64,000 nucleotides of DNA, taken from Bacilli bacterium (lineage in GTDB: Bacteria; Bacillota_I; Bacilli_A; RFN20; CAG-826). The notes beneath the pieces were generated by a model, which searched no databases, had not been told where the DNA came from, and worked only from the letters and a program-made list of their open reading frames with translations. Where the stretch lies: assembly GCA_044372565.1 (NCBI GenBank), contig JBILRP010000003.1, positions 5,471-69,470 on the forward strand, read 5' to 3'. Both the position numbers and the translations under genes were made by a program. Shown here one piece after another: positions 21,397 to 40,865 of this stretch; positions within the stretch are counted from its first letter, which is position 1; the number at the start of each line of letters is the position of its first letter.

Positions 21397-21489
21397 GGAG
21401 TAGTACCCAAGAGGCTGAAGGGGACGGTTTGCTAAACCGTTAGATCGGAGTAATCCGGTGCGAGGGTTCAAATCCCTCCTACTCCGCCA
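21397..21489 (+). tRNA. tRNA-Ser (anticodon GCT)
   Basis: Acceptor GGAGTAG/CTACTCC, anticodon stem ACGGT/ACCGT with loop TTGCTAA, long variable arm, GGTTCAAATCC T-arm, encoded CCA. Confidence 0.85.
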
Positions 21490-21490
21490 T

Positions 21491-21522
21491 AACCCATATT
21501 CATTGATGGGTTTTTTTATTTT
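21491..21522 (+). terminator. rho-independent terminator after tRNA-Ser(GCT)
   Basis: AACCCAT-attcattg-ATGGGTT hairpin followed by TTTTTTTATTTT. Confidence 0.6.
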
Positions 21523-21565
21523 GAGAATAGGCGAAAAAGTTATAAAATTACAGATAACAACGATT

Positions 21566-22693
21566 ATGGTGATTATAGAAATTGTTAAGACTCGAAACGA
21601 ACTTAAAACATTTATTGATTTTCCATCCAATTTATATGAAGGGAATCCTTTTTTTACCCCTTATATCTATGAGGATGAATTAAGTAATCTTGATCCAAAA
21701 AAGAATCCAGCGAGTTCTTATTGTGATTTTAAGTTATTTCTAGCTAAAAAAGATGGCAAGGTTGTTGGTCGAGTTGCTGCCATCATCAATCGGTTTTCAA
21801 ATGAGAAGTATCATGAAAAACGAGTTCGTTTTAACCGAATTGATTTTATTGATAACCAAGAGGTCTTTGACGCCTTGATTGGTGCAGTTAGTCAGTATGG
21901 TAAAGAGCATGGCATGACCCAAATGGCAGGGCCATTAGGATATTCAGATCAAGACAAAGAAGGCTTACTTACCTTTGGTTTTGAAGAGAAAAATATGTTT
22001 GTTACTTTTTATACTGCTCCCTATTATGTTGACCATTTTCAACGGTATGGTTTTCAAATCGATGCTACTTGGAAGGAATATCAAATTAAAGTCCCTAAAG
22101 CGATACCCCCTATTTTAGATAAAATTTCCCAACGGGTGATGGAAAGAAATCATCTACACGTGGTTCGCATTAAGTCCAAAAAGTATCGATATTTAGCTCC
22201 ATATATCAAACAAATCTTTCAACTAATGAATAAGACGTATGATCATCTTTATGGATATGTTCCTGTCAAAGAAGATTTAATGGATATGTTGGTGAAGCAG
22301 TATATCCCGTTAGTTAATCTAGATTATATTCAACTGATCTGTGATGCGAACGATACCTTGGTTGCATTTGGATTGATGATTCCTTCACCCGTCGATGCTT
22401 TAAAACGTTCAAAGGGACATTTGTTTCCCTTTGGATTTATTAATTTTTTCAAGCAACTAAAGCATAGTAAAGTTTTGGATATGCTTTTAATTGCAGTTGA
22501 ACCTTCCTTAAAAAATTCCGGTGTTTTAGCCCTTGTCTTTACCGAAGCCATTCGTAATGCAATAAAAAACGGCATTGAGCATGCTGAAACAGGACCAGAA
22601 TTAGAAAACAATCAACACGTTCAATCGTTATGGAAAAACTTTGATTCTCGTCACCATAAAACAAGAAGTGCTTTTGTTAAAGATATTCAATAA
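21566..22693 (+). CDS. hypothetical protein (about 375 aa), possibly acyltransferase-fold; first gene of an operon with a PlsC-family acyltransferase
   Basis: Long ORF begins after the tRNA terminator (ATG 21566; the upstream in-frame portion overlaps the tRNA and is rejected); no firm motif recognised. Confidence 0.5.
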   Translation: MVIIEIVKTRNELKTFIDFPSNLYEGNPFFTPYIYEDELSNLDPKKNPASSYCDFKLFLAKKDGKVVGRVAAIINRFSNEKYHEKRVRFNRIDFIDNQEVFDALIGAVSQYGKEHGMTQMAGPLGYSDQDKEGLLTFGFEEKNMFVTFYTAPYYVDHFQRYGFQIDATWKEYQIKVPKAIPPILDKISQRVMERNHLHVVRIKSKKYRYLAPYIKQIFQLMNKTYDHLYGYVPVKEDLMDMLVKQYIPLVNLDYIQLICDANDTLVAFGLMIPSPVDALKRSKGHLFPFGFINFFKQLKHSKVLDMLLIAVEPSLKNSGVLALVFTEAIRNAIKNGIEHAETGPELENNQHVQSLWKNFDSRHHKTRSAFVKDIQ

Positions 22694-23920
22694 ATGGCAA
22701 CCAAGAAATATACGTTTTGGCAGCATGGAGTTTATGTCAAGATCATTCGTTTTTTTGTTGGACCTTTTTTTAAACTCTATTACCGTTTTAGGGCTCGTTC
22801 AATCAAAATTAAAAAGACCGGTCCTTATTTAATCCTTGCCAATCACACGGCAGAATTCGACATTATTTTCTTAGGGATGTTGTTTGATGCCCCTTTGTAC
22901 TTTGTGGCAAGTGATCAACTGTTAAACGCTGGAAAAGGTAGCTGGGTTTTAAGAACACTTTTTAATCCAATTCCAAAGAGTAAATCGGTGGCGGATTTGG
23001 CACTGGTGAAAAGAATGAAGTCAGTTTTACAAGAAGGTGGTAACGTTGCAATATTTCCAGAAGGTAATTCATCCATTCATGGTGGGCCTTCTAAGATTCC
23101 TGAAGGGATGGGTCGTTTAATAAAATTTTTAAATGTTCCCGTTAAGTTTATCTCTATTCAAGGATTATATTTATCGTCCCCTCGCTGGTCGTATCATCGA
23201 AAATTTGGGCCTTCAACCATGAAAGAGATAAAAACCATCACCCCTGATCAATTTCATTCCATGGCACCGGAATCATTAGAAACCTTAGTGAAAGAGACAC
23301 TCAATATCTCCGCCTATGATCACAACCACTTTTCCTATAAAGGTAAGCGGATGGCCGAAGGATTACATAAATTAATTTTTACCTGCCCTCAATGTCGTGG
23401 GTTGTTCACCACAGACAGTATGCATCATGAGTTATTTTGTCACCAATGTGACTTTAAAGGCACTTACGATCAACATGGCTATTTAAACATTCACGGTCAC
23501 AAAGATAATTTAATCAACCATGATGCGATGAATCTTCAGCGCTTCCACGAATACATGCTTGTTCATGGAAACAAGGTTTCTATTCACCGCCAATGTGAGG
23601 TTGCATTTTGGGAAGGTGGGAATCAACGACGAACTGCTTTTGAAGATACCAATTTTGAAATTTCAGAAAAAGGAGTAAAATTGTTAATTAAGGACAAGGA
23701 AATCCATTATTCCTTTGATGACATTTATTCTCAAGCGATTCAAGTTCGAACAAAACTTCTCATTTATCCTAACCAAGGTCAAATGATGTTGCTAAGGTTT
23801 GACAAAAAGGACTCCCCATACGCTTTGCTCAACGTGATCAAATGGTATAAAACTTATTTAATGGAGGGAAATAAACATGAATTTACTAAGCCCCTCGCCA
23901 CAACCTTTTTGGGCCTTTGA
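22694..23920 (+). CDS. PlsC-family (lysophospholipid) acyltransferase with a C-terminal Cys-rich zinc-ribbon domain
   Basis: HX4D motif in ILANHTAEFD; FPEGNSS (FPEGTR-like) motif; C-terminal CPQC...CHQC pair. Confidence 0.75.
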   Translation: MATKKYTFWQHGVYVKIIRFFVGPFFKLYYRFRARSIKIKKTGPYLILANHTAEFDIIFLGMLFDAPLYFVASDQLLNAGKGSWVLRTLFNPIPKSKSVADLALVKRMKSVLQEGGNVAIFPEGNSSIHGGPSKIPEGMGRLIKFLNVPVKFISIQGLYLSSPRWSYHRKFGPSTMKEIKTITPDQFHSMAPESLETLVKETLNISAYDHNHFSYKGKRMAEGLHKLIFTCPQCRGLFTTDSMHHELFCHQCDFKGTYDQHGYLNIHGHKDNLINHDAMNLQRFHEYMLVHGNKVSIHRQCEVAFWEGGNQRRTAFEDTNFEISEKGVKLLIKDKEIHYSFDDIYSQAIQVRTKLLIYPNQGQMMLLRFDKKDSPYALLNVIKWYKTYLMEGNKHEFTKPLATTFLGL

Positions 23921-25334
23921 TTTTTACTGGAGTCAGATCATCCAATTTTCGATTATTATGGCCATTTTGTTATTGGCCAATGTATTAAGAAGAAAAGTTC
24001 TTTGGTTAAAAGCTTCTTTATTGCCAGTGGCAGTCATTGGTGGTTTTTTAGGCTTATTGATCAAGTATCTCTTTAATGGTAGCCCAATCTCAATTGCTAA
24101 TCTAATGATAGAAGAGACGAGCTTATTTAATGTGGACACATTAAGTTCATTTACCTACCACGCGATTGCCATAGGTTTTGGTGCCTTAACCCTTAAAGGT
24201 ATCGATCAGATGAATCAAGGCCCAATGAGGAAAAAACCGCTCGCCGTGAAAAGTGGGATGGTCATTGTCAATTCTTATCTAATCCAGGGTATTTTTGGTC
24301 TAATTGTCACAAGTATTCTTACTTTCTTCTTTGTCAATATTCCTAATTATGCAGGGTTTTTATTACCGATGGGTTACGGTCAAGGACCTGGTCAAGCTCT
24401 GAATGTCGGTGATATCTTTCAACGTCTAGATTTTATCTATGGGCGTGATTTTGGTCTTTCTATTGCTTCAATTGGTTTTCTTGCAGCGTCATTAGGCGGC
24501 GTCATTTATCTACGAAAATTAAAAAACAAGGGCTTATTAAAGACAGTAGAAGAAACCTCGATGGAATCAAAACAAGAATCAACAATCCTTGAAGGCAATG
24601 GCCAGATCCCTCTTGTCGATGCCGTGGATAAGTTAACCATTCAAGTTGCCATTTTATTCTTTATTTATGGATTATCTTGGTTATTTATTTATGTTCTTGA
24701 ACAATTGATGCGACAAAGCGGTGTAGATTTTTTAATTAGGAATTTAATCCCACTTTTATATGGTTTTAACTTCATTATTGTTGTTTTTGCAGCATTATTA
24801 TATAAAGTGATCACCCGTAGACTCATTCAATCCAAGATCATGAAAAGAATTTACACGAATGACTTCCTTCTCAATCGAATTGCTGGATTAGCTTTTGATA
24901 TCATGATGATTGCCTCGATTATGGCTATTGACATTACCTTGGTTGGTGATTTAGGGTTCTTGGTGACGTTACTCGTTTTAGTGATTGGTGGGGGTTTGAT
25001 CACTTACTTCTATCTAGGTTATCTCACCAAAATCGTCTACCCTAACTATCCCCATGAAGCATTCTTGGTGTTTTATGGCACGATGACCGGTACCGCCTCC
25101 ACTGGGATTGCCTTATTAAGAGAAAAAGACCCTTATTTTCAAACTCCGGCTGCTAATGACATTGTCTATGGTTCATCGATGGCAATTCCTTTAGGGTTTC
25201 CCCTGCTCTTATTTGTTGGGGTGGTCAGTCAAGGCTGGGTATCTTTGTTGATTGTTTTGGTTATTTTTTCATTAATTTTTACGGTTTATCATCTAATTTT
25301 AAGCAAATCAAAGAAGAAACAAAATCTTCAGTAA
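23877..25334 (+). CDS. sodium/glutamate symporter family (GltS-like) membrane transporter
   Basis: 485 aa polytopic protein; N-terminal LANVLRRKVLWLKASLLPVAVIGGFLGLL and C-terminal YGTMTGTASTGIALLR resemble GltS landmarks; GGAGGG RBS; overlaps the previous gene by 44 nt. Confidence 0.65.
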   Translation: MNLLSPSPQPFWAFDFYWSQIIQFSIIMAILLLANVLRRKVLWLKASLLPVAVIGGFLGLLIKYLFNGSPISIANLMIEETSLFNVDTLSSFTYHAIAIGFGALTLKGIDQMNQGPMRKKPLAVKSGMVIVNSYLIQGIFGLIVTSILTFFFVNIPNYAGFLLPMGYGQGPGQALNVGDIFQRLDFIYGRDFGLSIASIGFLAASLGGVIYLRKLKNKGLLKTVEETSMESKQESTILEGNGQIPLVDAVDKLTIQVAILFFIYGLSWLFIYVLEQLMRQSGVDFLIRNLIPLLYGFNFIIVVFAALLYKVITRRLIQSKIMKRIYTNDFLLNRIAGLAFDIMMIASIMAIDITLVGDLGFLVTLLVLVIGGGLITYFYLGYLTKIVYPNYPHEAFLVFYGTMTGTASTGIALLREKDPYFQTPAANDIVYGSSMAIPLGFPLLLFVGVVSQGWVSLLIVLVIFSLIFTVYHLILSKSKKKQNLQ

Positions 25335-27437: not shown

Positions 27438-28721
27438 TTACTGACCCTCCTCCCATCGATTGCCGCTGGCTTTGACGTTCACGTTTAAATCCTTAACAAG
27501 CATGTTGACAAATGATTGGATAAAGGAGCGATCATCGATGATTCGAGAAAAGGTGATGACCAGTTGGTCTAAAAAAGTTGCCATCGCAACATTGATGGGT
27601 AAGATTGGGGTTGCACAGAGCGTAAAATCAAAATGATCAATAAATGATTGTGTGGATTGTGGCATCTCAATTTTACCTAAGTTAGACATGACAATACTTA
27701 ACGCGGTTTCACCAACACGATTAAACACAAATTTAATGACCCATCGCTTAATAAACAAGGGAATAAATCTTAATAAAAGCATTCGTTCAACCTTTAAATT
27801 TGCTCTGATTTGTGGGGCAAGAATCTCAAGTTGCTGACCCTTTTTTAGCTGTTGATTCACAACGTCTAAGACTTCTTGAAATGTAGAATCTGGTTTAAAA
27901 AAACCACCAATATTAATCGTCATCACAAAGTTTTTCATCGTTTTTGAGGGTATGTACTTACGCATATCCACCGGGATAGAAAGAATGATTTTCTTTCTCT
28001 TTTTAGGATGAAGTGCTTCTTGTTTTTGAATCAATATCAAAATTAACATCGTTGCAAATAAACCTGTGATTGTGGTTTGCTTTGCCTTAGCAACGGCAAT
28101 CAATTCTTTTGTGTTTAAGTGCAAATGGGTAAGGTAATGACCAGTATGCTCGAAATACGTTCCTTTTAAATGAAAAGCATTTTCTGTTGGCAAAAAAATG
28201 CCATTGCCTTTGGTCACTTTCGTTGCAAAACTATCTTCAAGTTCCGCATTCGTTACCTGATCATTGGCATCAAATATAATGCCTTCTGCATCCACGACAT
28301 GACCTTTTTCTCTTAAATAAGCTAAGGTTAAGGTTTTTAAAAACTCCATGCCACCCCGTCCATCGGTAATTGCATGAAATACTTCAATAGAAATTCGTTG
28401 GCGGTGATAATAAATTTCAATCAAATGTTTCAAACGGTCATTGGGTCTAGGGTTCGTACCAAACATGTTTGGATCAGGCTGGACTTTAAAAAGTTTAGAT
28501 TGGTTTTCTAAATAGTACCAAAACAATCCTTTTCGTAAACGCGTATTAAAATTTGGAAAACGAAACAATGTTTTTTCTGCAGCAAGTTGAAGAACAACCG
28601 GATCAATGGTTTCCTTGAGAACAATACTTAAGCGAAAATAAGAGGCTCTTAATTTTCCGGTAATGATAGGGAAAAGTTTACCGGCATTGTCGATTTTAAA
28701 CCACTGCGTTGTTCGATTCAT
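27438..28721 (-). CDS. condensation/CAT-fold acyltransferase (HxxxDG motif; WS/DGAT or alcohol-acyltransferase-like)
   Basis: 427 aa; VFHAITDGRGGMEF contains the HxxxDG catalytic signature of the condensation-domain / chloramphenicol-acetyltransferase-like superfamily. Confidence 0.55.
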   Translation of the reverse strand: MNRTTQWFKIDNAGKLFPIITGKLRASYFRLSIVLKETIDPVVLQLAAEKTLFRFPNFNTRLRKGLFWYYLENQSKLFKVQPDPNMFGTNPRPNDRLKHLIEIYYHRQRISIEVFHAITDGRGGMEFLKTLTLAYLREKGHVVDAEGIIFDANDQVTNAELEDSFATKVTKGNGIFLPTENAFHLKGTYFEHTGHYLTHLHLNTKELIAVAKAKQTTITGLFATMLILILIQKQEALHPKKRKKIILSIPVDMRKYIPSKTMKNFVMTINIGGFFKPDSTFQEVLDVVNQQLKKGQQLEILAPQIRANLKVERMLLLRFIPLFIKRWVIKFVFNRVGETALSIVMSNLGKIEMPQSTQSFIDHFDFTLCATPILPINVAMATFLDQLVITFSRIIDDRSFIQSFVNMLVKDLNVNVKASGNRWEEGQ

Positions 28722-30801: not shown

Positions 30802-31560
30802 TTAAAGACTGGAACTCAATTCAGGGGATATTAGAATACTCATGACAGACAAAAGGTTATTAAAGATATGCGTTGCCATGGCCACCTGAAGTCCGAAGCG
30901 ATCGTAGAGAAAACAAAACCAAGCTCCCGCGACTAAATAGATAGGTAAATTGAATAACTCATTGGTTAAATTCGTCGCGGTAAAATCAAAATGGATGAAT
31001 CCAAAAATAGTCAATGTCGCAAGATAGGCAACCCATTTGTTTCGTCCTTTTAAATACTGAAACAATCCTAAGCGATAAGTCCATTCTTCCACGATGGGGC
31101 CAAGAAACCCAAACGTAATTAATGAAATGATGGGAGAATCTTTGACGAGCCTCACGATGGCGGCTTGATTTTGGTTATCTTCCAGTTGAATGCCTAAGGC
31201 ATCATAAAGAGTTACCAAACCAAATGATGTGAAAAGGATTGCAAAGGTAAAAGGCAAACCTAACCACCATTGTCCTGAAAATAACGCAGGAATGAAGGTG
31301 GTTCGTAAATAAGGCCAAATTAAGATAATACCGATCATGAACAAGGTTACATAGGTCAGTGAATTTATATAACTAAAAAATAGATCACTATTTAAGAAAA
31401 TGTCAGTTTCTTCAAGGGGTAGAATAAAAGGGACGATGAATCCAAAAAGAGCACTAAAAAAAATAGCGAAAACAATTAGCCCAATCCAACCCAAAAAAAA
31501 CAACAATAATTGCTTGTTTTTATCGATTTGAAAGGGTTGTCGTTGTATATCCAAATTCAT
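30802..31560 (-). CDS. CPBP-family intramembrane glutamic endopeptidase (CAAX protease/Abi-like)
   Basis: Motifs EEWTYRLG (EExxxR), FGFIHF (FxxxH), HIFNN (HxxxN); start set at the ATG of MNLDIQ... (the longer ORF to 31668 would overlap the divergent giant gene). Confidence 0.7.
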   Translation of the reverse strand: MNLDIQRQPFQIDKNKQLLLFFLGWIGLIVFAIFFSALFGFIVPFILPLEETDIFLNSDLFFSYINSLTYVTLFMIGIILIWPYLRTTFIPALFSGQWWLGLPFTFAILFTSFGLVTLYDALGIQLEDNQNQAAIVRLVKDSPIISLITFGFLGPIVEEWTYRLGLFQYLKGRNKWVAYLATLTIFGFIHFDFTATNLTNELFNLPIYLVAGAWFCFLYDRFGLQVAMATHIFNNLLSVMSILISPELSSSL

Positions 31561-31580
31561 GTATAAATATATGTTTTTAT

Positions 31581-31603
31581 TATGATAGCATATCAATATC
31601 ATA
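31581..31603. promoter_or_regulatory. inverted repeat TATGATA-n9-TATCATA in the divergent intergenic region (candidate operator)
   Basis: Seen directly between the CPBP protease start and the giant gene's RBS. Confidence 0.3.
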
Positions 31604-31639
31604 TAAAATGATAGATGAAACCCCATTAGGAGGTTATCA

Positions 31640-34600
31640 ATGTTAACAACGTTAGGTTTTGGAATCAATCCAACACAAATTGCCCAATATTTAGATTACG
31701 CATTGTATGGCATTTTCGGCATGGTCGCTTTAGGGTTTGTTTTTGGTTTCATTCGTGGGGTTTGGAGAGAAGGATTTCGCTTAATATTTGTTGGTGGATT
31801 GGTGGTCTTTTCTGTCTTATTCACCCGTCAGTTGGTCGATCTCTTCATGGATTTTGATGTTTCCTCGCTAGCTGCAAGCGCAGGATTTGCTTCCATTTCC
31901 TTAAACATAAATGCATCCCCAATCATTGTCTCGGTGACGACCCCATACGAAACAATTTATAATTTACTTGAACAATCCTTACTCGCTTTTGGCTTCTTTA
32001 TTACCCCCGCGATTTCTGACTTGGTCATTGGATTAACCCTAGTCATCTTAAGATATGTGCTCTTTATCGTCTTAGCAATCATCATCTTTTTATTGGGTGA
32101 ATCCGTCGCTGCGATTTTATACTTTCTCCCTTTTCGGTTTTTTATTCCCCGTCATTTTCGGAAAAAAGTTAAGTTGCGATTACTTGGTGGCGCTGCTGGG
32201 GCCTTGAAAATGGTGCTTGTCTTAACGATGTTTTTATCACCCTTTACATCCTTAATCAATTCTGTAACAACATCGTTTAGAGACTTCGATGAGCAATATG
32301 GTGACCAAATTGATGCCGAGCTTTATGACGAAATCATGTCGTTTGTTGACACATATAATGATTCAACGTTTGCCCAAACACTTTTTTCTTGGTCATTAAC
32401 TGATGATGGGTTGAGTATTGATTCTGCGTTGATGGATTTTGTTTCCGGTGAGGATTTAGATGCCTATCGATTGACGCTAGCAAATGAATTGGGATCGGTG
32501 GTTGATATTGCTGCGACCTTGTTAGGAAGTGGTGCTATAGACAGTACCTTTACCACCATTGACACATCGTTATTACTTTCAGAAGATTTAGTGACCAATC
32601 TAATCACCTCATTAACTGGGTCGGTTTTAATCATGAAGATTTTACCCATTGCCGTAACAATAGGATTAAATCTTGATGAAGTCTCCAGTTACTTAGATCC
32701 TTCATTAATTGATCTTGATGATTTAGTTTGGGAAGATGAACTTGGCTATCTAGGTGATATTTTTAATGGAGTGATTCGCTCTGGCATATTAACGCCGATT
32801 CTAAATGGTAATACCGATACTGCGTTTTTAATTGATACGATTTTCTCACCAACATCACAACCAGAAATCAATCAAATTTTAGAAACGATTGACGAGTCGC
32901 CTTTTCTATCTCAAGTAATTCCTGCTGTATTGTTCAAGCTTGTAGAAGATGAACTTGCTGCCGGTGGTCCAGTCGGTGGCGTTGGGCTATCTACATTCTT
33001 ACCAACGGAATGGGAAGAATACGAAACCATTCAGTTTGGATCAGAATTAAGTTTAATTTATGACTTGGTGTATGAATTAACATCGGAAGTGGATGGACTA
33101 TTTGACCTCCTTCTTCCAGCTCAAGATTCTCCACAGCCTCTGGGTCGTAAACAAGTGGATGAACCAGCAACCCCATCCATTATTGATTTATTAAGTGAGC
33201 ATTTAGATTTGTTTGTTGAAGTTTTAATCGGTGAAGTCAATACTGTTGGTGAACCAATCAATAACAATCCAACCACAGGTAAATCCATCAATCGCCAATC
33301 GTTGTTAGATTCTGATTTGATCATGAATGCGCTTCCTGCAATTGTGGAAAATTTATTATTACCAACTTTAACCAGTGTTGCCGGAGAAAGCTTTGATGAT
33401 ACGAGTTTAAATCAATTAATTGAAGATTTTAACAGCGGAAATTTAGGAGATGTTCGACTTGATTATAAAGGTGAATTCGGTGGGATTTTTAGTATTCTCG
33501 ACGCTGTCATTAGCAATGAAACGTTGATTGGTTTGCTTGAACCTGAACCAGGTGAGACGCTAGACATTTTAGGCTTAATCGAAGATGGTGAATTTCGCAA
33601 AGGATTAAAAACTGATTTGATTCCTGCGCTTGATCGATCCCAAATCATTTTTGCTGTCGTTCCAGGCATTTTAGAATCAACACTCACGGGTGCAGGATTA
33701 GATGATTTCCTCGGATTACTTTCCCTTACCAGTGCCGATTTGAATTTTGAATTTACAAGCTTATCTAGAGAGTTGATTATTGTCATCGATATGTTAGGTT
33801 ATGCCTTTAATGTGATTGACGCAAGTAGTGATTTATTGAATCAATTCCCGACCATCGCGTATGACCTTATTGGCTTATTGGACAACATTTACTTGTCTGA
33901 TATCATCAACAAAAATCCAATCACGAATAACAAAACCACGAATTATAATCAAATGATCAAAGGGATTTTCACCCTTGTTGAAGGTATCGGCATTGATGAA
34001 GACGACATCGATGTTGGCTTTAATCAGATTGTTCCAGTTGGGCAAGAAAATGGATGGACAACAACCTTTGTTGACACCAACAACAATGACAAACTTGATG
34101 CGCTTGACACGGTATCCTATGCCGGGGAAAATTATCACCTAGTCAACTTTTTAAAGACCGCTTTAGAATCTGGATTATTGGATATTTCTGGGGATATCTT
34201 TGCCGCCCTTGATGACTTAACTACGGGCAGTGAAGATATTGATGATCCTAACGTGGCAACCCTATATAAAATATTTGCCTATGCCGATCGCTCTGAGATT
34301 ATTGCCGCTTCCTTTGGGGGTATTCTTGATAGTTTGTTTGGGGCAACAGGTGGATTGCTGGATGCAGATTTAGGAACCTCATTTAGAAATGTGACGTCTT
34401 GGACAGAAGAAGGCTCTAATTTGATGTACTTAGTCAAACAGTTGACTAATTTTGCTGATGGTTTAGAGAACATTGATTTCCTCAATTCAGATGTATCGAT
34501 GATTGAAGAACTTTTACAAGGATTAGCTGCATCACAAATCTTTATCAAACCTAACGGAGACTATGTTTTTCCAGATTTCTTGTTAGACCAACTTACCGGT

Positions 34601-37600
34601 ATTGCCGATCTTGCAACCTATTTTGAAGATCCTTCTCCTTATCAATCGACTTGGGATGACAATCCTGCAGATAATTTTAATATTGTTACTGAAGATTTTT
34701 ACGCCATCAGTAATCAAGTGTCAACCCGAGCCAATTGGTATGGTGTGAAAACGATGATGACCGATGGAGATGGTGATCCGATTCTTAATGTGAATGGAGA
34801 TTTCCAATATGAATTTGTTGGTGGTGAATTAGAAAATATTGTTGGATTTATCTCAGAATTACAATCCGTTTCGATTGCTGATCTGACTTCTGGTATTGGA
34901 TTAAGCGGTGAAACAATTTCTGATGTCTTGCTCGCACTTAATAATGCATCCTCATTACGGGTGCTTGTGTATAACGTCTATGATTCAATCTTTGGTGGTT
35001 CGAATTTCGATATAGGTTCATTGTCTTTATCAGATACAAATACCTTTGTATTCTTAGAATTAAATCAAGCTGGTCGAGCCCAACAAATTCAAGCAACCGC
35101 AGATTTGTTAGATACGATTAGCGACATGGGACTTGATGGCGGTGGTTCATTTGACATTGCTGGTTTTGATGAATCTACCATTCTTGTCGTGGGTGACTTA
35201 TTGACCATTCTTCATGATGCAGCTTTATTTAACTCGTTCAAATTAGGTCGTTCTCGTCTTAATGGTGACTTAACCGTCTTTGAACAAGCCTATCAATTTT
35301 TATTGACGACGGCAACGTTGGATACCTTTATTTATGACGGACTGAATGAGGCGCAAAGAGAGGTCGCACTATATCAGGATATGACATCTCTCGATAATAG
35401 TTTTGGAACCAATACACCCGACGATTGGGATGGACTCGATGGCGAAATTCAACGCTTTGTGGATATCATGGTGTCGTTTGTTAACACTGGTATCGACTTC
35501 ACGAACTTTGGTGGCGATGCGATTGGTGATTTATTGAATACAGAAGTTGGTTTGGGTAAAGTGGAAGATCTATTGCTTTCCATGAATGAATCGATAATTA
35601 TTTCACCGGCCATTGGCAACTTGTTTGGCAATGTATTTGGCTCAGATGCCTTTGATATCGGCGGCCTAACCATGAGTGATGCCAACACCAATTACTTCAA
35701 CCAACAACCACTCAAATCAGTGCGAGCAACAGAAATTAGTTTAATTCTCGATATTTATTGGGATATTAACAATATCGGTATCACCGGTGGTGCTGCTTTT
35801 TCCGCCGATCTTATTGACCCAGTGTTGTTTGATGCCTTGCTCAACAAAATGCATGATTCCAAAGTCTTTAATTCATTTAAAACTGGAAATAGTTATGTAT
35901 TGGATGATTTAACCATCTTTGAACAAACCGTGAGAATGATCTTAAATTCATCTACCCTTGATACGTTTATCTATGATGAACCGATTAGTGCGAATCGACT
36001 GCTTTTACTTCAAGATGACATTGCTGCCTTAAATAATAATTTTGGGATTGGATTAGTCGATGATGATTGGACTGGTGTCAATGGTGAAATCAATAACATT
36101 ATTGGGATTCTTGAGTCCTTTAAAGAAACCGATATCGATTTCACGAACTTTGGTGGGGATGCGATTGGCGACTTATTGAATACAGAAGTTGGTTTGAATA
36201 AAGTTGAAAATTTATTATTATCGATGAATGATTCAACGTTAGTTGCTCCTTCCATTGGTAACCTTTTTGGTAACATCTTTGATTCTGACTCATTCAACAT
36301 CAATGGCTTAACGATGAGTGATGCTAATACGCCTTTCTTTAACGAAGAAGCCAATCGTGAAACACGAGGAGTGGAAATTAGTTTAATCTTAGATATTTAC
36401 ACGGACATCAATTCAATTGGCTTGTCTGGTGGCGCTGCTTTTTCATCCGATTTAATCAATCCGATTCTCTTTGATGATCTTCTGACGAAAATGCATTCAT
36501 CGAATGTCTTTAATTCCTTTAAACAAGGAAACAGTTATGTCAGTGAAGATTTAACCATCTTTGAACAAACCGTGAGAATGATTTTAAATACATCCACCAT
36601 TGACACCTTTGTATACGACGGCGAAATTAATTCTGCTCGATTAGGCTTTCTACAAGAGGACATGAGTGTAATGGTCAACAACTTTGGAAATCTCAGTATC
36701 ACCGATGATTGGGCTGGTGAAACAGGCGAAATTTCTAAGATTGTTGCAATCTTATCAGCGTTTAAAAATCTCGATCTTGATTTTAGTTCATTCTCTGGAC
36801 CGGGGTCTTCAGAAAGTTTAGCAAGTTTAATTGATACCCCTGCTGGTTTAACAAAAATTGAAAACTTGCTTTTGGCGATGAACGATTCGCTCATCGTTTA
36901 TCCCGCCATTCCTAATTTATTTTCTAACATGTTAGCCGGTGGGGATTTTTCTTCGATTGGTGTGAATTTCGCGATGGCAAACTTTCGTTATCGTGGGAAT
37001 AGAAATAATCCGATTAGTCCAGTAGTTGATGACATTTATCTTCCTTATGAACCGACAGAAATATCGGCAATTTTATCGATTTTCTCAGACGTGAAAATAG
37101 TGGGTAATCGAAGTTACGGATCGATTAAGGATTTATCTGATGAAGGCATTGATGACATGGCCAACTTGGTCACGGATTTATATGAGTCTCAAGTGTTTCA
37201 CCAAACTGGACCAGCGACGGCATTGGGCACAGATTTAACCATCTTTGAACAAATGATGGCGAAGATGTTTAAAGACACCGGAATGGCTGCGCTTGCTTAT
37301 GATGCCAATCGTTTGGCGGATGCGCCGTTTGGTAATGCCAATGCCAAAGCGAACCACTTGGTGTTAAACTTCTCCACATTATTCCCTGTCAACAACACCA
37401 CGCATTTAACCGATGGGTGGTTGAATGATGGGGCTCAAGTTGGGGAAATAACAGCCTTCTTTAGAATTTTTAAAGAATTTAAAGTTGCTTTGCCAAATCT
37501 AGAAAGCGCATCCTCGATTGATCCAGGCGCATTATCACCCACGTCAATTGGGCGAATCATGGCGGCCTTAAATTATTCATCCTTAACCTCCGATGCCGTT

Positions 37601-38857
37601 AAAAAGATGGTTCAAGACGCCTTTGAAAGTATTGAGTTTGGTACCTACACAGAAGATAACGAAACCTATGAATTGACCCCAGTTGAGTTTTTACTTGAAG
37701 ATATCGATGTGATGGATTATAACGTCCTCCCTGGAACTGCCACCCGAGTTGGGTTGATTCGCGGTTTATTGGTTGGTTTTTACGATGAAGGGGATGAAGC
37801 ATACATTTCCATTAGTGGCGGCTTTAATGTCACAAGTTTCTTAAATGATGGAGGATCTCTCTTCCCCTTGGTTAATTTGCTCTCAAAATCAAACATATTT
37901 GGTAATCATGCAACCAATATTCTTAACCCATCTGCAAGTCAAACAGGACTGACTCCTTTTAATGTCACGACCCCAGGTAGTTTTAAAACCCGGGCCCTCA
38001 CATTCTATAATTTTTTAAATACAGCGAATGTTGGAAAGTATTTTAATTATCTAACCACCTTACCAACTGATAAAGAAGCCAAAGTGATTCGGGTTGAAAA
38101 TATTTTTGCTGGCGATTTTGATGAACCATTTGAAGCCAATCGATTAGACTCATTTATTGCGACGATTTCTGGATTTACTAATGTTTCTAATGCAGCCAAC
38201 CTCGATGAATTTAGCGCGGAAATGCGTGCGTTAATTGAATTAACGTATACGGCAACCGGTCACACGATTACCGATCGCGCCTTCATGGTTTCTGAGTTAT
38301 CGGCAGGATTCTTTACTGATATTTTTAAGAATGAATATGTTTTGGTTGAAGATACTGAAGCTCCATACTTTGGTGACGCCAGTAATCCTTTAAAACAATT
38401 AAATTTCTATGATGCTAATTTTGATTTAACCAATGATTTCCAACTCTTAAATCCAATTGAGGCAGATGGCTTTGAAGGGGCTTTGGAATTTTTATCAGCG
38501 ATTAAAGGAATTTCAAACCCACCAAGTTCAACCGATGTGACTGCCATGGAATCAGCCTTGATAAAGATGGGTTCACGAGCCAACCTCCTTGTTCCTGGAG
38601 GGCCTTACCCTACTGCGACTGACTTCACGACTTGGTCTGATGCAAAAATTAGTCAAATTGCTCAGTTATTTTACGGTGCTAGAATTGTGACTAATACAGG
38701 TTTTGACGGTTTGTCGGCGTTGATTGTCACCGTGACGACCCCAAACCCATTTACCAATCCAAGCGGCATTCTAACTATTCTAAGTCAACAACCATATGAA
38801 GATGATTTTGTCTTTGAAATTGAGGCGGAAAAAATCTCTTACGCTTTTGGTGCCTAA
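31640..38857 (+). CDS. giant (2405 aa) membrane-anchored acidic repeat protein: N-terminal CvpA-like 5-TM domain plus a very long Cys-free, D/E/L/T-rich body with tandem ~214-aa repeats
   Basis: Uninterrupted 7.2-kb ORF with a strong AGGAGG RBS 7 nt upstream. N-terminus FGFIRGVWREGFRLIFVGGL resembles the CvpA (colicin V production) family. No cysteine found in the translation. All antisense ORFs inside are short. Confidence 0.8.
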   Translation: MLTTLGFGINPTQIAQYLDYALYGIFGMVALGFVFGFIRGVWREGFRLIFVGGLVVFSVLFTRQLVDLFMDFDVSSLAASAGFASISLNINASPIIVSVTTPYETIYNLLEQSLLAFGFFITPAISDLVIGLTLVILRYVLFIVLAIIIFLLGESVAAILYFLPFRFFIPRHFRKKVKLRLLGGAAGALKMVLVLTMFLSPFTSLINSVTTSFRDFDEQYGDQIDAELYDEIMSFVDTYNDSTFAQTLFSWSLTDDGLSIDSALMDFVSGEDLDAYRLTLANELGSVVDIAATLLGSGAIDSTFTTIDTSLLLSEDLVTNLITSLTGSVLIMKILPIAVTIGLNLDEVSSYLDPSLIDLDDLVWEDELGYLGDIFNGVIRSGILTPILNGNTDTAFLIDTIFSPTSQPEINQILETIDESPFLSQVIPAVLFKLVEDELAAGGPVGGVGLSTFLPTEWEEYETIQFGSELSLIYDLVYELTSEVDGLFDLLLPAQDSPQPLGRKQVDEPATPSIIDLLSEHLDLFVEVLIGEVNTVGEPINNNPTTGKSINRQSLLDSDLIMNALPAIVENLLLPTLTSVAGESFDDTSLNQLIEDFNSGNLGDVRLDYKGEFGGIFSILDAVISNETLIGLLEPEPGETLDILGLIEDGEFRKGLKTDLIPALDRSQIIFAVVPGILESTLTGAGLDDFLGLLSLTSADLNFEFTSLSRELIIVIDMLGYAFNVIDASSDLLNQFPTIAYDLIGLLDNIYLSDIINKNPITNNKTTNYNQMIKGIFTLVEGIGIDEDDIDVGFNQIVPVGQENGWTTTFVDTNNNDKLDALDTVSYAGENYHLVNFLKTALESGLLDISGDIFAALDDLTTGSEDIDDPNVATLYKIFAYADRSEIIAASFGGILDSLFGATGGLLDADLGTSFRNVTSWTEEGSNLMYLVKQLTNFADGLENIDFLNSDVSMIEELLQGLAASQIFIKPNGDYVFPDFLLDQLTGIADLATYFEDPSPYQSTWDDNPADNFNIVTEDFYAISNQVSTRANWYGVKTMMTDGDGDPILNVNGDFQYEFVGGELENIVGFISELQSVSIADLTSGIGLSGETISDVLLALNNASSLRVLVYNVYDSIFGGSNFDIGSLSLSDTNTFVFLELNQAGRAQQIQATADLLDTISDMGLDGGGSFDIAGFDESTILVVGDLLTILHDAALFNSFKLGRSRLNGDLTVFEQAYQFLLTTATLDTFIYDGLNEAQREVALYQDMTSLDNSFGTNTPDDWDGLDGEIQRFVDIMVSFVNTGIDFTNFGGDAIGDLLNTEVGLGKVEDLLLSMNESIIISPAIGNLFGNVFGSDAFDIGGLTMSDANTNYFNQQPLKSVRATEISLILDIYWDINNIGITGGAAFSADLIDPVLFDALLNKMHDSKVFNSFKTGNSYVLDDLTIFEQTVRMILNSSTLDTFIYDEPISANRLLLLQDDIAALNNNFGIGLVDDDWTGVNGEINNIIGILESFKETDIDFTNFGGDAIGDLLNTEVGLNKVENLLLSMNDSTLVAPSIGNLFGNIFDSDSFNINGLTMSDANTPFFNEEANRETRGVEISLILDIYTDINSIGLSGGAAFSSDLINPILFDDLLTKMHSSNVFNSFKQGNSYVSEDLTIFEQTVRMILNTSTIDTFVYDGEINSARLGFLQEDMSVMVNNFGNLSITDDWAGETGEISKIVAILSAFKNLDLDFSSFSGPGSSESLASLIDTPAGLTKIENLLLAMNDSLIVYPAIPNLFSNMLAGGDFSSIGVNFAMANFRYRGNRNNPISPVVDDIYLPYEPTEISAILSIFSDVKIVGNRSYGSIKDLSDEGIDDMANLVTDLYESQVFHQTGPATALGTDLTIFEQMMAKMFKDTGMAALAYDANRLADAPFGNANAKANHLVLNFSTLFPVNNTTHLTDGWLNDGAQVGEITAFFRIFKEFKVALPNLESASSIDPGALSPTSIGRIMAALNYSSLTSDAVKKMVQDAFESIEFGTYTEDNETYELTPVEFLLEDIDVMDYNVLPGTATRVGLIRGLLVGFYDEGDEAYISISGGFNVTSFLNDGGSLFPLVNLLSKSNIFGNHATNILNPSASQTGLTPFNVTTPGSFKTRALTFYNFLNTANVGKYFNYLTTLPTDKEAKVIRVENIFAGDFDEPFEANRLDSFIATISGFTNVSNAANLDEFSAEMRALIELTYTATGHTITDRAFMVSELSAGFFTDIFKNEYVLVEDTEAPYFGDASNPLKQLNFYDANFDLTNDFQLLNPIEADGFEGALEFLSAIKGISNPPSSTDVTAMESALIKMGSRANLLVPGGPYPTATDFTTWSDAKISQIAQLFYGARIVTNTGFDGLSALIVTVTTPNPFTNPSGILTILSQQPYEDDFVFEIEAEKISYAFGA
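34980..37510 (+). repeat. in-frame tandem repeat array (about 4 units of ~642 nt / 214 aa) inside the giant gene
   Basis: Recurring protein blocks: FTNFGGDAIGDLLNTEVGL, GLTMSDANT, EISLILDIY, NSFK.GNSYV, DLTIFEQTVRMILN.ST.DTF.YD. Unit phase is 642 nt (35495 vs 36137). Units 2 and 3 share DNA stretches identical over 30 nt (35911-35942 vs 36551-36582) and a nearly identical ~60-nt stretch (35495- vs 36137-). Confidence 0.75.
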
Positions 38858-38862
38858 AGGCG

Positions 38863-39618
38863 ATGAAAACCTTTGAAGTTAATCCGCGCTCAACCTTGAA
38901 AAAAACGATTGCGATCATGTCTAGTAAAGGTGGAGTTGGCAAAAGCACAGTCACTGCTTTAATTGCAATCCATTTGACTCGACTAGGAAAAAGAGTTGGC
39001 ATTTTAGATGCCGATATCATTGGCCCAACCATCTCAAAGTTATTTGCCATCACAGATAAAATCGTTGGCCAAGATGGTTTGATCTTACCGGTGGTCACCT
39101 CATTAGGGATTAAGTTAATCTCTTCACAGCTTTTATTATCAACACAAGATGAACCAATTGTTTGGCGTTCTCCACTCGTCCTTGATTTGATTCGGCAATT
39201 TTATGTCGATGTGATTTGGGGAGAACTCGACTATTTATTGATTGATTTACCACCTGGAACAGGGGATGTCGCAATGACGGTGTTAGAAAGTCTTCATGTC
39301 GATGAAATCATCATGGTGACCACCCCACAAGAAATTGTTCAAAGTATTGTCAGTAAAGGCATCCAAATGGCCGATATTGTCAAAAAACCAATCAAAGGCA
39401 TCATCGAAAACTACAGTTATTTTGTCTGTGATCAATGTGATAAGAAGCATTCATTTTTTCAAACATCATCACACATGCCAATCTGGGAAAAATATAAGAT
39501 TCCTCTGTTGGCAACATTACCCCTGCAATCAGATTTACCTAGTTTGATTGATAATGGTAAAATTGAACAAGTATCAATGATTGACATTGAAGCAATGCTT
39601 CAACATTGGAAGGATTGA
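38863..39618 (+). CDS. Mrp/ApbC/NBP35-family P-loop ATPase (Fe-S cluster carrier-like)
   Basis: IAIMSSKGGVGKST deviant Walker A; conserved CxxC (CDQC); begins 6 nt after the giant gene's stop. Confidence 0.85.
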   Translation: MKTFEVNPRSTLKKTIAIMSSKGGVGKSTVTALIAIHLTRLGKRVGILDADIIGPTISKLFAITDKIVGQDGLILPVVTSLGIKLISSQLLLSTQDEPIVWRSPLVLDLIRQFYVDVIWGELDYLLIDLPPGTGDVAMTVLESLHVDEIIMVTTPQEIVQSIVSKGIQMADIVKKPIKGIIENYSYFVCDQCDKKHSFFQTSSHMPIWEKYKIPLLATLPLQSDLPSLIDNGKIEQVSMIDIEAMLQHWKD

Positions 39619-39620
39619 TT

Positions 39621-40865
39621 ATGGATTCAAAAGAATACATCACAAGAAGAGAAAAATTATTTCAGCACATCATGGAGCAATCCATTGTTATTTTATATTC
39701 AGGTGGGCTTATCAAATCAAGTGCGGATGCTACGTTCCCATTTGTTGTCAATAAAAACTTCTTTTACTTAACAGGTATTGAGCAAGAAAATAGTATTTTG
39801 GTGATGTTAAAAACACCAACCACCGTCAAAACGTATTTGTTTATTGATGAAATTGATGAAGCGAAAACGCGATGGGTTGGTAAGAAACTTGATGTTGAAA
39901 CTGCCACCAAGACCAGTGGCGTTCATGATATTTTCATGATGTCCATGGTTGATACGAGACTTAAAGAAATGTTATTGGATACCAATGGATACGGCAAAGT
40001 GACTCACGCCTACCTCGACTTGGAAAAGAATAACGTGATTGATGGTCATTTAAAAACAACGGAACGTGTTGCTGAAGACTTAAAGAAACAATACCCAGCA
40101 TTAACGATTGAAAATGCATATCCAATCTTAACGAAACTCCGCATGATTAAATCGCCAAAAGAAGTTGAGGCCATTCGTGTTGCCATCAAAGGAACTGCAT
40201 ATGGGTTACAAAGTATTCGTAAACACTTAAAGCCTGGATTGTTCGAACATCAAATCGAAGGTTTATTCCAATACGCGATTAAAGAGTATGGGAATATGGG
40301 TTTGGCGTTTGAAACCATTATTGCCAGTGGTAAAAATGCCATCATTCTTCACTACCCAAACCCCAAAGATAAAATCGCAGATGGTGCATTGGTCCTTTGT
40401 GACCTTGGCGCGACCAATGGTCAGTACCGAGGTGATATTACCAGGACGTATCCAGCGAACCGAAAATTTAATCCGTTACAAAAACAAATCTATGAAACCG
40501 TCTTAAAAGCTAATCAATTGATTATTCAAATGGCAAAACCAGGATTAAAAATTGTTGATTTACAACAAGCGTGCTTAAAGTTTTTGGCAGATGCTGCTGT
40601 CAAAGAGGGTTGGATTAAAACCCCAGAAGACATAGGTAAAATTTACTATCACAACGTCGGTCACCATTTAGGATTAGATACCCACGATCCAATCGGGCGT
40701 GATATTCCTTTAGAACCAGGATGTGTCATCACGGTTGAACCAGGCTTATACATCAAAGAATTAGGGATTGGTATTCGCATTGAAGATAACATTTTAATCA
40801 CGGAAAAAGGTTGTGAAAATCTCTCCGCTGACATTCCTAAAACCATCGAAGAAATCGAAAATTAA
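39621..40865 (+). CDS. pepP: Xaa-Pro aminopeptidase (M24B)
   Basis: HNVGHHLGLDTHD and ExGxY...E metal-ligand motifs of M24B; GGAAGGA RBS before the ATG at 39621. Confidence 0.85.
   Translation: MDSKEYITRREKLFQHIMEQSIVILYSGGLIKSSADATFPFVVNKNFFYLTGIEQENSILVMLKTPTTVKTYLFIDEIDEAKTRWVGKKLDVETATKTSGVHDIFMMSMVDTRLKEMLLDTNGYGKVTHAYLDLEKNNVIDGHLKTTERVAEDLKKQYPALTIENAYPILTKLRMIKSPKEVEAIRVAIKGTAYGLQSIRKHLKPGLFEHQIEGLFQYAIKEYGNMGLAFETIIASGKNAIILHYPNPKDKIADGALVLCDLGATNGQYRGDITRTYPANRKFNPLQKQIYETVLKANQLIIQMAKPGLKIVDLQQACLKFLADAAVKEGWIKTPEDIGKIYYHNVGHHLGLDTHDPIGRDIPLEPGCVITVEPGLYIKELGIGIRIEDNILITEKGCENLSADIPKTIEEIEN

What the first reader, a model, noticed from the sequence alone, without database searches (positions are those of the whole stretch)
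34980..37510. Near-identical 642-nt in-frame tandem repeats inside the giant gene, a likely hotspot for copy-number variation
Repeat units 2 and 3 share stretches that are identical at the nucleotide level (ttaaccatctttgaacaaaccgtgagaatgat at 35911 and 36551; gatttcacgaactttggtgg...ttattgaatacagaagttggttt at about 35495 and 36137). Units 1 and 4 are diverged. Such recently homogenised units allow RecA-mediated expansion or contraction, and hence length variation of the exposed protein. They also commonly collapse in short-read assemblies, so the true copy number may differ.
Basis: seen in the sequence. Interest (0 to 1): 0.55.

Follow-up and report, generated by a model that had tools for sequence, protein, structure and literature searches.

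The report
Diverged tandem modules in giant gene
A 7.2-kb gene for an uncharacterised giant membrane-anchored protein holds four in-frame copies of a 214-residue helical module; the two middle copies are only about 68% identical in DNA, so this is an old, now stable domain array whose copy number has changed between species, not a present-day hotspot.

Summary
The periodicity is real. ORF 31640-38857 (+, 2405 aa) holds four tandem in-frame modules (U1 34829-35446, U2 35447-36088, U3 36089-36730, U4 36731-37429), and U2 to U3 is exactly 642 nt. "Near-identical" is wrong. U2 and U3 are 68% identical in DNA and 66% in protein, with synonymous sites saturated. U1 and U4 match them only at protein level (24-37%).

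The quoted identical blocks exist (35, 24 and 17 nt). They exceed codon-usage expectation and mark two short U2/U3 gene-conversion patches specific to this species.

Copy number does change in evolution. Orthologs carry 2, 3 or 4 clear modules, the wider family 1-8, and shorter relatives have chimeric junction modules (U2 head on U4 or U3 body), as in-register unequal recombination would leave. Within this species, nine independent contigs (eight protein-cluster members plus MAG locus L001) all have four modules. I found no sign of assembly collapse. With 32% divergence and exact matches of at most 35-42 nt, RecA-driven slippage should now be rare.

The protein is acidic and Cys-free, with an N-terminal multi-pass anchor and a confidently predicted all-helical module. 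It has no Pfam, NCBIfam or PDB match. The gene is syntenic in all 22 related MAG loci from uncultured Bacilli. The repeat phenomenon is ordinary; the family is undescribed.

The parts
31640..38857 (+). Giant gene: 2405 aa, 262 kDa, pI 4.05, no Cys. GGAGG Shine-Dalgarno at 31629-31633, 6 nt before the ATG.
   Evidence: ORF list; translation; composition; upstream sequence; 47 homologs, none named and none with Pfam domains.
31640..32248 (+). N-terminal membrane anchor (aa 1-203) with 4-5 hydrophobic segments. The positively charged loops (RGVWREGFR, RHFRKKVKLR) place the rest of the protein outside the cell (inference).
   Evidence: Hydropathy scan. Consistent but sub-threshold Pfam Colicin_V/CvpA hits in 7 of 15 diverse family members, best E 0.0048. 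An HMM of this domain hits 118 of 123 full-length family representatives.
34130..34828 (+). Degenerate extra copy of the module (about aa 835-1063), directly upstream of U1. Boundaries are approximate.
   Evidence: hhalign of the module profile against the N-terminal region: probability 95%, E 4.7e-8. hmmsearch finds 6 matched stretches in P0001.
34829..35446 (+). Module U1 (aa 1064-1269), the diverged first unit.
   Evidence: HMM hit of 265 bits. 36-37% aa identity to U2/U3. 50% nt identity to U2.
35447..36088 (+). Module U2 (aa 1270-1483), 642 nt.
   Evidence: The most conserved unit among orthologs (91-92% aa identity to sister species).
36089..36730 (+). Module U3 (aa 1484-1697), 642 nt. 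68% nt and 66% aa identical to U2.
   Evidence: Groups with the orthologous U3 of other species, not with U2.
36731..37429 (+). Module U4 (aa 1698-1930), the diverged last unit, with a 19-aa insertion.
37448..38089 (+). Degenerate extra copy of the module (about aa 1937-2150), downstream of U4. Boundaries are approximate.
   Evidence: hhalign probability 92%, E 5e-7.
35498..35554 (+). Gene-conversion patch A in U2 (peptide FTNFGGDAIGDLLNTEVGL). Its partner in U3 is 36140-36196. Contains exact blocks of 17, 11 and 24 nt.
   Evidence: Exact runs. Sliding-window paralog-versus-ortholog comparison. Patch length is polymorphic among strains.
35906..35940 (+). Gene-conversion patch B in U2 (peptide DLTIFEQTVRMI), 35 nt exact. 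Its partner in U3 is 36548-36582. The exact run is 42 nt in the conspecific locus L001.
   Evidence: P about 5e-4 for a run of 35 nt or more, given the proteins and codon usage. Sister species encode the same peptide with runs of 17 nt or less.
38863..39618 (+). Mrp/ApbC-like P-loop ATPase, 5 nt after the giant gene's stop. Probably co-transcribed.
   Evidence: Pfam ParA/NUBPL 8e-78; NCBIfam MrpORP/ApbC hits, both below the curated cutoff; syntenic in 19 of the 22 MAG loci.
39606..40865 (+). Xaa-Pro aminopeptidase (M24). Overlaps the previous gene by 13 nt.
   Evidence: Pfam Peptidase_M24 6.5e-53 and AMP_N; syntenic.

Best explanation
The region is an old tandem array of a roughly 214-residue all-helical module, inside a giant, acidic, membrane-anchored protein. 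The protein is probably extracytoplasmic. It is a conserved, syntenic gene in a clade of uncultured Bacilli.

The array arose by in-frame duplication of whole modules. The U2/U3 duplication predates the split of species that are now only 64-80% identical, and each copy has since evolved under purifying selection (dN/dS about 0.2).

Two recombination processes act on the array. First, rare in-register unequal crossovers between modules delete or add whole modules. This gives orthologs with 2, 3 or 4 clear modules and chimeric junction modules. In this species it is recent enough that the patch length is polymorphic.

In the genome sampled here the modules are too diverged to be an active RecA hotspot, and the four-copy state is fixed in the species.

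Shown: periodicity, divergence, orthology of units, copy-number classes, chimeric units, conversion patches, species-level constancy. Inferred: the recombination mechanism, the outside location of the domain, and any role of module number in setting the length of the protein.
For: Periodicity and divergence.

Unit orthology: in the NJ tree of 113 units, WIN_U2 and WIN_U3 sit in separate clades with the orthologous units of P0002-8 (and, for U3, P0011/13).

Copy number: 4, 3 or 2 modules match the protein length classes. These states are interleaved on the N-terminal tree; for example P0014, the sister of the window protein, has 2. Family-wide, 123 full-length representatives have 1-8 clear modules, and median length rises from 1687 to 2996 aa with module count.

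Chimeric junction units: in the 2-module proteins the last unit has a U2-type head (60-78% to U2 against 34-46% to U3/U4) and a U4-type body. The switch point lies at about column 25 in P0014, P0028 and P0030, and at about column 50-75 in P0012 and P0017. The single internal units of the 3-module proteins run from U2-like to U3-like.

Gene conversion: exact runs of 35 and 24 nt have P about 5e-4 and 0.018 under codon-usage resampling. In those patches the paralogs are closer than the orthologs. Strain P0048 has a private KVEE in both units, and P0054/56-58 have a longer identical patch.

Stability: all full-length or array-spanning members of the 90% cluster, plus MAG locus L001, have four modules. 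No family member has modules more than 81% identical; the median best pair is 30%.

Structure: AF2 model of the four units, pLDDT 86.4 and pTM 0.71; single unit, pLDDT 86.7 and pTM 0.85; both all helical.

Synteny.
Against: The direction of some copy-number changes (loss versus gain) rests on neighbour-joining trees without support values. The C-terminal half of the gene is mosaic between lineages, which can blur unit orthology.

The within-species sample comes from short-read metagenome assemblies. A rare length variant would be missed, and clustering at 90% identity could exclude it.

The conversion tracts are inferred from two DNA sequences of the species plus protein data; no formal GENECONV-type test was run.

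The function and outside location of the protein are not shown.
Confidence: 0.8

Rival explanations
1. One reading: U2 and U3 are recently homogenised, near-identical repeats that act today as a RecA-mediated expansion and contraction hotspot, giving length variation of the exposed protein within populations.
For: Short identical blocks exist and reflect recent U2/U3 gene conversion. Copy number differs between related species.
Against: Overall identity is 68% in DNA, with saturated synonymous sites. The units are orthologous across species. The longest exact match is 35-42 nt, against a minimal efficient processing segment above 40 bp and a drop of about 45,000-fold by 21% divergence in B. 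subtilis (PMC4824099). Nine independent contigs of the species all carry four modules.
Confidence: 0.08
2. Assembly artefact: the true array has more (or fewer) copies, and identical copies were collapsed or chimerically joined by the short-read assembler.
For: Tandem repeats are a known cause of assembly error (PMC6868369, listed). The window is a metagenome-type contig.
Against: Copies differ at about one base in three, so k-mers do not collapse them. The same 2405-aa, four-module structure was recovered in independent ENA, JGI and NCBI assemblies and in a MAG at 98% identity. Contig breaks in the fragmentary cluster members are not enriched in the array: 4 of 10 fall in it, and it makes up 36% of the gene. 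The ORF is intact and in frame.
Confidence: 0.03
3. The identical blocks are not gene conversion. They arise from strong purifying selection on the most conserved peptide motifs, combined with AT-biased codon usage.
For: The blocks coincide with the best conserved motifs (DLTIFEQ, FGGDAI). Expected codon identity at same-residue sites is already 47%.
Against: Resampling codons for the actual peptides gives a run of 35 nt or more in 0.05% of trials. Sister species encode DLTIFEQTVRMI in both units with exact runs of 17 nt or less. In patch A their U3 has a different peptide (STGPGL, not NTEVGL). A strain-specific substitution is present in both units of P0048.
Confidence: 0.09

Closest known systems
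Intragenic tandem domain arrays of bacterial giant or surface proteins, whose repeat number changes by unequal recombination (for example staphylococcal SD-repeat proteins, PMC3324548, and Legionella intragenic repeats, PMC2639597; both only listed, not read)
   Same: In-frame tandem units inside a large, probably surface-exposed protein. The unit number differs between relatives and sets protein length. There are footprints of unequal crossover and gene conversion.
   Different: The units are long (642 nt) and old (68% DNA identity at best, against typically above 90% in variable-number repeats). No within-species variation is seen. The module is a folded roughly 10-helix domain, not a low-complexity or Ig-like repeat.
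Alpha-solenoid repeat proteins (HEAT/ARM/PUF-like)
   Same: All-helical repeated architecture. The only Foldseek neighbours of the four-module model are solenoids (SF3B1, CRM1, beta-catenin, Puf4).
   Different: No significant match: best E 0.058 and TM 0.13 for the array, best E 1.4 and TM 0.26 or less for one module. The repeat period is about 214 residues, not 40-50. No sequence similarity.
CvpA / Colicin V production protein family (Pfam PF02674), for the membrane anchor only
   Same: A small multi-pass N-terminal membrane domain with a G-x3-R-G motif after the first helix. Colicin_V is the most frequent weak Pfam hit across diverse family members (7 of 15).
   Different: All hits are below the gathering score (best E 0.0048; 10 bits for the window protein against a 29.3-bit cutoff). 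CvpA proteins are about 160-200 aa and have no giant ectodomain (my own knowledge).

Membership tests
Variable-number tandem repeat (contingency-type) locus in a surface protein gene | Adjacent units nearly identical in DNA (roughly 90% or more), giving long tracts of perfect homology | tested here: not met
   U2-U3 identity is 68% in DNA and the longest exact run is 35 nt. TRF finds no array.
Variable-number tandem repeat (contingency-type) locus in a surface protein gene | Copy number polymorphic among strains of one species | tested here: not met
   Five full-length and three array-spanning members of the 90% cluster, plus MAG locus L001, all have four modules. The sample is limited to short-read assemblies.
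Evolutionary tandem domain array shaped by unequal recombination | In-frame head-to-tail units homologous at protein level | tested here: met
   Four units with BLASTP E from 1e-19 to 3e-91 for U2/U3 against each neighbouring unit; U1 vs U4 is weak (E 0.004). Period 214 aa. Two further degenerate copies.
Evolutionary tandem domain array shaped by unequal recombination | Orthologs differ by whole units, with chimeric units at the junctions | tested here: met
   Length classes differ by about 214 aa. U2-head/U4-body and U2/U3 chimeras.
Evolutionary tandem domain array shaped by unequal recombination | Gene-conversion tracts between paralogous units | tested here: met
   Paralogs are closer than orthologs in two patches. 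Run-length test. Strain polymorphism.
Any curated protein family (Pfam-A, NCBIfam) or solved structure | Significant profile or structure match for the module or the whole protein | tested here: not met
CvpA (Colicin_V, PF02674) membrane domain | Score above the Pfam gathering threshold | tested here: not met
   10 bits against a 29.3-bit cutoff for the window protein. 7 of 15 family members hit at E 1 or below, best 0.0048.

The most novel reading that the evidence does not exclude
The gene encodes a so far undescribed class of giant envelope protein: a CvpA-like membrane anchor carrying a rigid, acidic rod built from a new ~214-residue helical module. It is a core, operon-linked gene (with an Mrp-like ATPase and an aminopeptidase) of a whole clade of uncultured Bacilli. 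Under this reading the number of modules acts as a length ruler for a surface or envelope structure and is tuned between species by whole-module recombination.
Probability: 0.2. Interest if true: 0.6.

Novelty: new member of a known kind. Interest (0 to 1): 0.3.

Why it matters
For the scan, this corrects an over-reading. The repeats are not a live copy-number hotspot or an assembly hazard, so the gene model can be trusted as it stands.

Biologically, it is a clean example of how a giant protein changes length in whole-domain steps. Orthologous units, chimeric deletion junctions and polymorphic micro-conversion tracts are all visible in public metagenome data.

It also flags an unannotated family. 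Only 177 clusters (at 50% identity) among 1.84 billion representative proteins match the module, and almost all are 1500-3000 aa. The module is predicted with confidence, has no known relative, and could be registered as a new domain. The gene's core, syntenic status in an uncultured freshwater and gut Bacilli clade makes it a candidate envelope component worth experimental study.

Tried and rejected
- Tandem Repeats Finder on 30-45 kb found nothing, because the copies are too diverged.
- blastp of the protein against itself returned only the identity HSP, so I queried unit by unit instead.
- Pfam on the whole protein, on five pieces at E up to 10, and on four distant family members gave no real hit. 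The Xre_MbcA_ParS_C hit (E 0.0035, below cutoff, 26 residues) was rejected as spurious.
- NCBIfam: none.
- PDB sequence profile search: a single hit, AUGMIN subunit 3, E 0.025, rejected.
- Foldseek against PDB with the four-module and the one-module models gave only generic helical proteins.
- A literature search for this family found nothing relevant.
- I asked whether contig breaks in fragmentary cluster members pile up in the array, as a sign of assembly trouble. They do not.
- I asked whether the gene is an accessory or mobile surface gene. This is rejected by strict synteny across 22 MAG loci and by housekeeping neighbours.

Full report
**Observation.** The window's longest ORF (31640-38857, + strand, 2405 aa) has a GGAGG ribosome-binding site 6 nt upstream of its ATG. 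I compared the gene with itself at every in-frame offset from 30 to 3000 nt. One offset stands out: 642 nt, with 69.8% identity over the best 600-nt window starting at 35420. No other offset exceeds 39%. The repeat finder reports the same pair as two 288-299-nt segments at 71-72% identity, spaced 642 nt. Tandem Repeats Finder reports nothing.

At protein level there are four consecutive units of about 214 residues:
- U2 (aa 1270-1483) and U3 (1484-1697) are 66% identical (E 3e-91).
- U1 (1064-1269) is 36-37% identical to U2 and U3 (E 1e-31).
- U4 (1698-1930) is 31-34% identical to U2 and U3 (E 1e-19 to 1e-24).

The exception is the 20-mer GATTTCACGAACTTTGGTGG, which occurs once; only 17 nt of it are shared. 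So the periodicity, the frame and the number of units are right, and "near-identical" is not.

**How diverged are the middle units?** Codon-aligned, U2 and U3 are 68.2% identical in DNA. The proportion of synonymous differences is 0.65 (dS about 1.5, effectively saturated) and dN is 0.27. That is the signature of an old duplication kept under purifying selection. The longest exact matches at offset 642 are 35, 24, 17 and 14 nt.

**Relatives.** A search of 5.8 billion protein clusters found 47 homologs. All are unnamed or "hypothetical", none has Pfam domains, and all come from metagenomes or MAGs labelled Bacillota or Bacilli. Their lengths fall into classes of 2403-2430, 2188-2216 and 1962-2029 aa. 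An HMM built from the four window units finds 4, 3 and 2 modules in these classes respectively.

A scan of GTDB species genomes gave 22 loci (L001-L022) in MAGs from lakes, rivers, gut and rumen. The gene sits in the same neighbourhood in the loci that extend far enough: enolase, DUF6320, an unknown gene, Ham1, TraX and a CPBP/Rce1-like protease upstream; an Mrp/ApbC-like ATPase, a PepP M24 peptidase and Udk downstream. The core of this neighbourhood (TraX upstream, the ATPase and PepP downstream) holds even where the giant protein is only 25% identical. The rest of the window is housekeeping: ProRS, LeuRS, PriA, RNase J, RlmN. This is therefore a core, vertically inherited gene, not a mobile or accessory surface gene.

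**History of the units.** In a neighbour-joining tree of 113 units, first units, last units and internal units form separate groups. The window's U2 groups with the U2 of P0001-P0008. Its U3 groups with the U3 of the same proteins and of P0011/P0013. So the U2/U3 duplication is older than the divergence of species that are now 64-80% identical. The units have not been homogenised as wholes. P0031 appears to have its own duplication, and P0016/P0018 possibly so.

On a tree of the non-repeat N-terminal 1060 residues, the 4-, 3- and 2-module states are interleaved. P0014, the closest sister of the window protein, has 2. P0006/15 have 3, P0012/17 have 2, P0002-8 have 4, P0009/10 have 3, P0028 has 2 and P0011/13 have 4. 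Because U2 and U3 orthologs are shared by the 4-module lineages that bracket these, the shorter proteins are most simply explained as independent losses.

The junctions fit this. In every 2-module protein the last unit begins like U2 (60-78% identity to U2 references against 34-46% to U3/U4) and continues like U4. The switch lies near alignment column 25 in P0014, P0028 and P0030, and near column 50-75 in P0012 and P0017. In the 3-module proteins the single internal unit runs from U2-like to U3-like. These are the products expected from in-register unequal crossover between modules, at several different points.

**The identical blocks.** I resampled codons for the actual U2 and U3 peptides from the gene's own codon usage. 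An exact run of 35 nt or more appeared in 0.05% of trials, and a run of 24 nt or more in 1.8%. Observed codon identity at same-residue sites is 58%, against 47% expected. The conspecific locus L001 has the same blocks (42 and 24 nt). Four sister-species loci never exceed 17 nt, although they encode the same DLTIFEQTVRMI motif.

In sliding windows along the unit, offsets of about 60-120 nt and 420-500 nt behave differently from the rest. There the window's U3 is 83-90% identical to the window's U2 but only 67-72% to the orthologous U3. Over most of the rest of the unit either the orthologs are the closer pair (notably offsets 0-60 and 120-240) or the two comparisons are about equal. In patch A the window's U3 even carries the U2 peptide NTEVGL, where sister species have STGPGL.

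Within the species the patch is polymorphic. It is 21 identical residues in the window, P0051, P0060 and P0001, and 32 in P0054/56/57/58/50. In P0048 a private KVEE is present in both units. These are short-tract gene conversions between U2 and U3, some of them recent.

**Is it a hotspot now?** Three results say no.
- All five full-length members of the 90%-identity cluster (P0001, P0048, P0051, P0054, P0060), three C-terminal fragments that span the array (P0056-58) and the MAG locus L001 have four modules. They come from independent assemblies. No hit above 90% identity has another length.
- Across 172 family members with two or more modules, the best intra-protein module identity is 81%. 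The window's 66% ranks about seventh, and the median is 30%. Duplications are rare and their products are long-lived.
- Published work on Bacillus subtilis gives a minimal efficient processing segment above 40 bp, a drop in RecA-dependent integration of about 45,000-fold by 20.8% divergence, and integrated tracts that shrink to a few nucleotides (PMC4824099). At 32% divergence, short conversion patches are what one expects, not frequent whole-unit crossovers.

The same divergence makes k-mer collapse in assembly implausible. Contig ends of fragmentary cluster members are not enriched in the array.

**What the protein is.** It is 262 kDa, has pI 4.05 (335 D+E against 103 K+R) and no cysteine. 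Hydrophobic segments are confined to the first 203 residues, apart from two weaker stretches. The two strongly positive loops (RGVWREGFR, RHFRKKVKLR) would lie inside the cell and the acidic bulk outside; this follows the positive-inside rule and is an inference.

A profile of the module also detects degenerate copies just upstream of U1 (about aa 835-1063; probability 95%) and just downstream of U4 (about aa 1937-2150; probability 92%). At least six modules therefore make up more than half of the ectodomain.

Searching the module profile against 1.84 billion representative proteins gives only 177 hits. Nearly all are 1500-3000 aa with 2-10 matched stretches. Among 123 full-length representatives the number of clear modules runs from 1 to 8, median length rises with it, and 118 share the N-terminal anchor.

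AlphaFold2 models are confident and all-helical. The four-module segment has pLDDT 86.4 and pTM 0.71. One module has pLDDT 86.7 and pTM 0.85, with about ten helices. Foldseek against the PDB finds nothing significant: only generic alpha-solenoids for the array (best E 0.058, TM 0.13) and noise for the single module (best E 1.4). Pfam, NCBIfam and PDB sequence searches are negative.

The anchor gives consistent but sub-threshold Colicin_V/CvpA hits in 7 of 15 members. That is a lead, not a membership. The function remains unknown. My working guess is a surface or envelope rod whose length is set by module number, at low confidence.

**Verdict.** This is a real in-frame tandem array whose copy number has changed repeatedly between species by whole-module recombination, with recent micro-conversion between the two middle units. 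The units are old and diverged, the array is fixed at four in this species, and there is no sign of assembly artefact. The phenomenon is a known kind. The protein family and its module are undescribed, which gives the locus modest independent interest.

Noticed in passing
window 36700-38857 (C-terminal half of the giant gene); proteins P0002, P0005, P0007, P0008, P0013-15, P0018: Trees of the N-terminal and C-terminal parts of the protein disagree. P0005 equals P0002 for about 1500 aa and then switches to the P0007/8-type C-terminal half. Two C-terminal 'types' circulate among close relatives, which implies homologous recombination between lineages inside the gene (sequences).
   Followed up: partly
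window 38785-38854 (last ~23 codons of the giant gene): The extreme C-terminus (PY-x3-FVFEIEGEKI-x-Y-x-F) is conserved across the family, including 25%-identical members (invariant Y2386, F2390, F2392). Its role is unknown. A CPBP/Rce1-like intramembrane protease is encoded divergently just upstream in most of the 22 loci (14 with a direct match).
   Followed up: no
window 38863-40865: An Mrp/ApbC-like P-loop ATPase starts 5 nt after the giant gene's stop, and a PepP M24 aminopeptidase overlaps it by 13 nt. No terminator-like site lies between the giant gene's stop and the ATPase start, and the trio is syntenic in most of the 22 related MAG loci, so it looks like one operon.
   Followed up: partly
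window 30802-31668 (- strand): The listed TTG-start ORF for the CPBP/Rce1-like protease overlaps the giant gene's start by 29 nt. Matches in several orthologous loci (for example L002 and L003) end earlier, so its true start is probably further downstream on the minus strand.
   Followed up: no
loci L001, L011, L013, L017, L020: Public MAG records carrying this locus are titled Staphylococcus epidermidis, Staphylococcus sp. or Staphylococcaceae. The gene content and sources (lakes, rivers) point to an uncultured Bacilli lineage, so these are likely taxonomic mislabels.
   Followed up: no
window 18130-19929, 21458-22693, 23877-25334, 27438-28721: Four sizeable ORFs (599, 411, 485 and 427 aa) near the giant gene have no Pfam match at E 1e-5 or below. 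The 427-aa one is syntenic with the giant gene in 11 of the 22 MAG loci.
   Followed up: no
window 32588-32680 (aa 317-346 of the giant protein): A further hydrophobic stretch (LITSLTGSVLIMKILPIAVTIGL) lies well outside the N-terminal anchor. It could be an extra membrane-spanning or buried helix, which would change the predicted topology.
   Followed up: no
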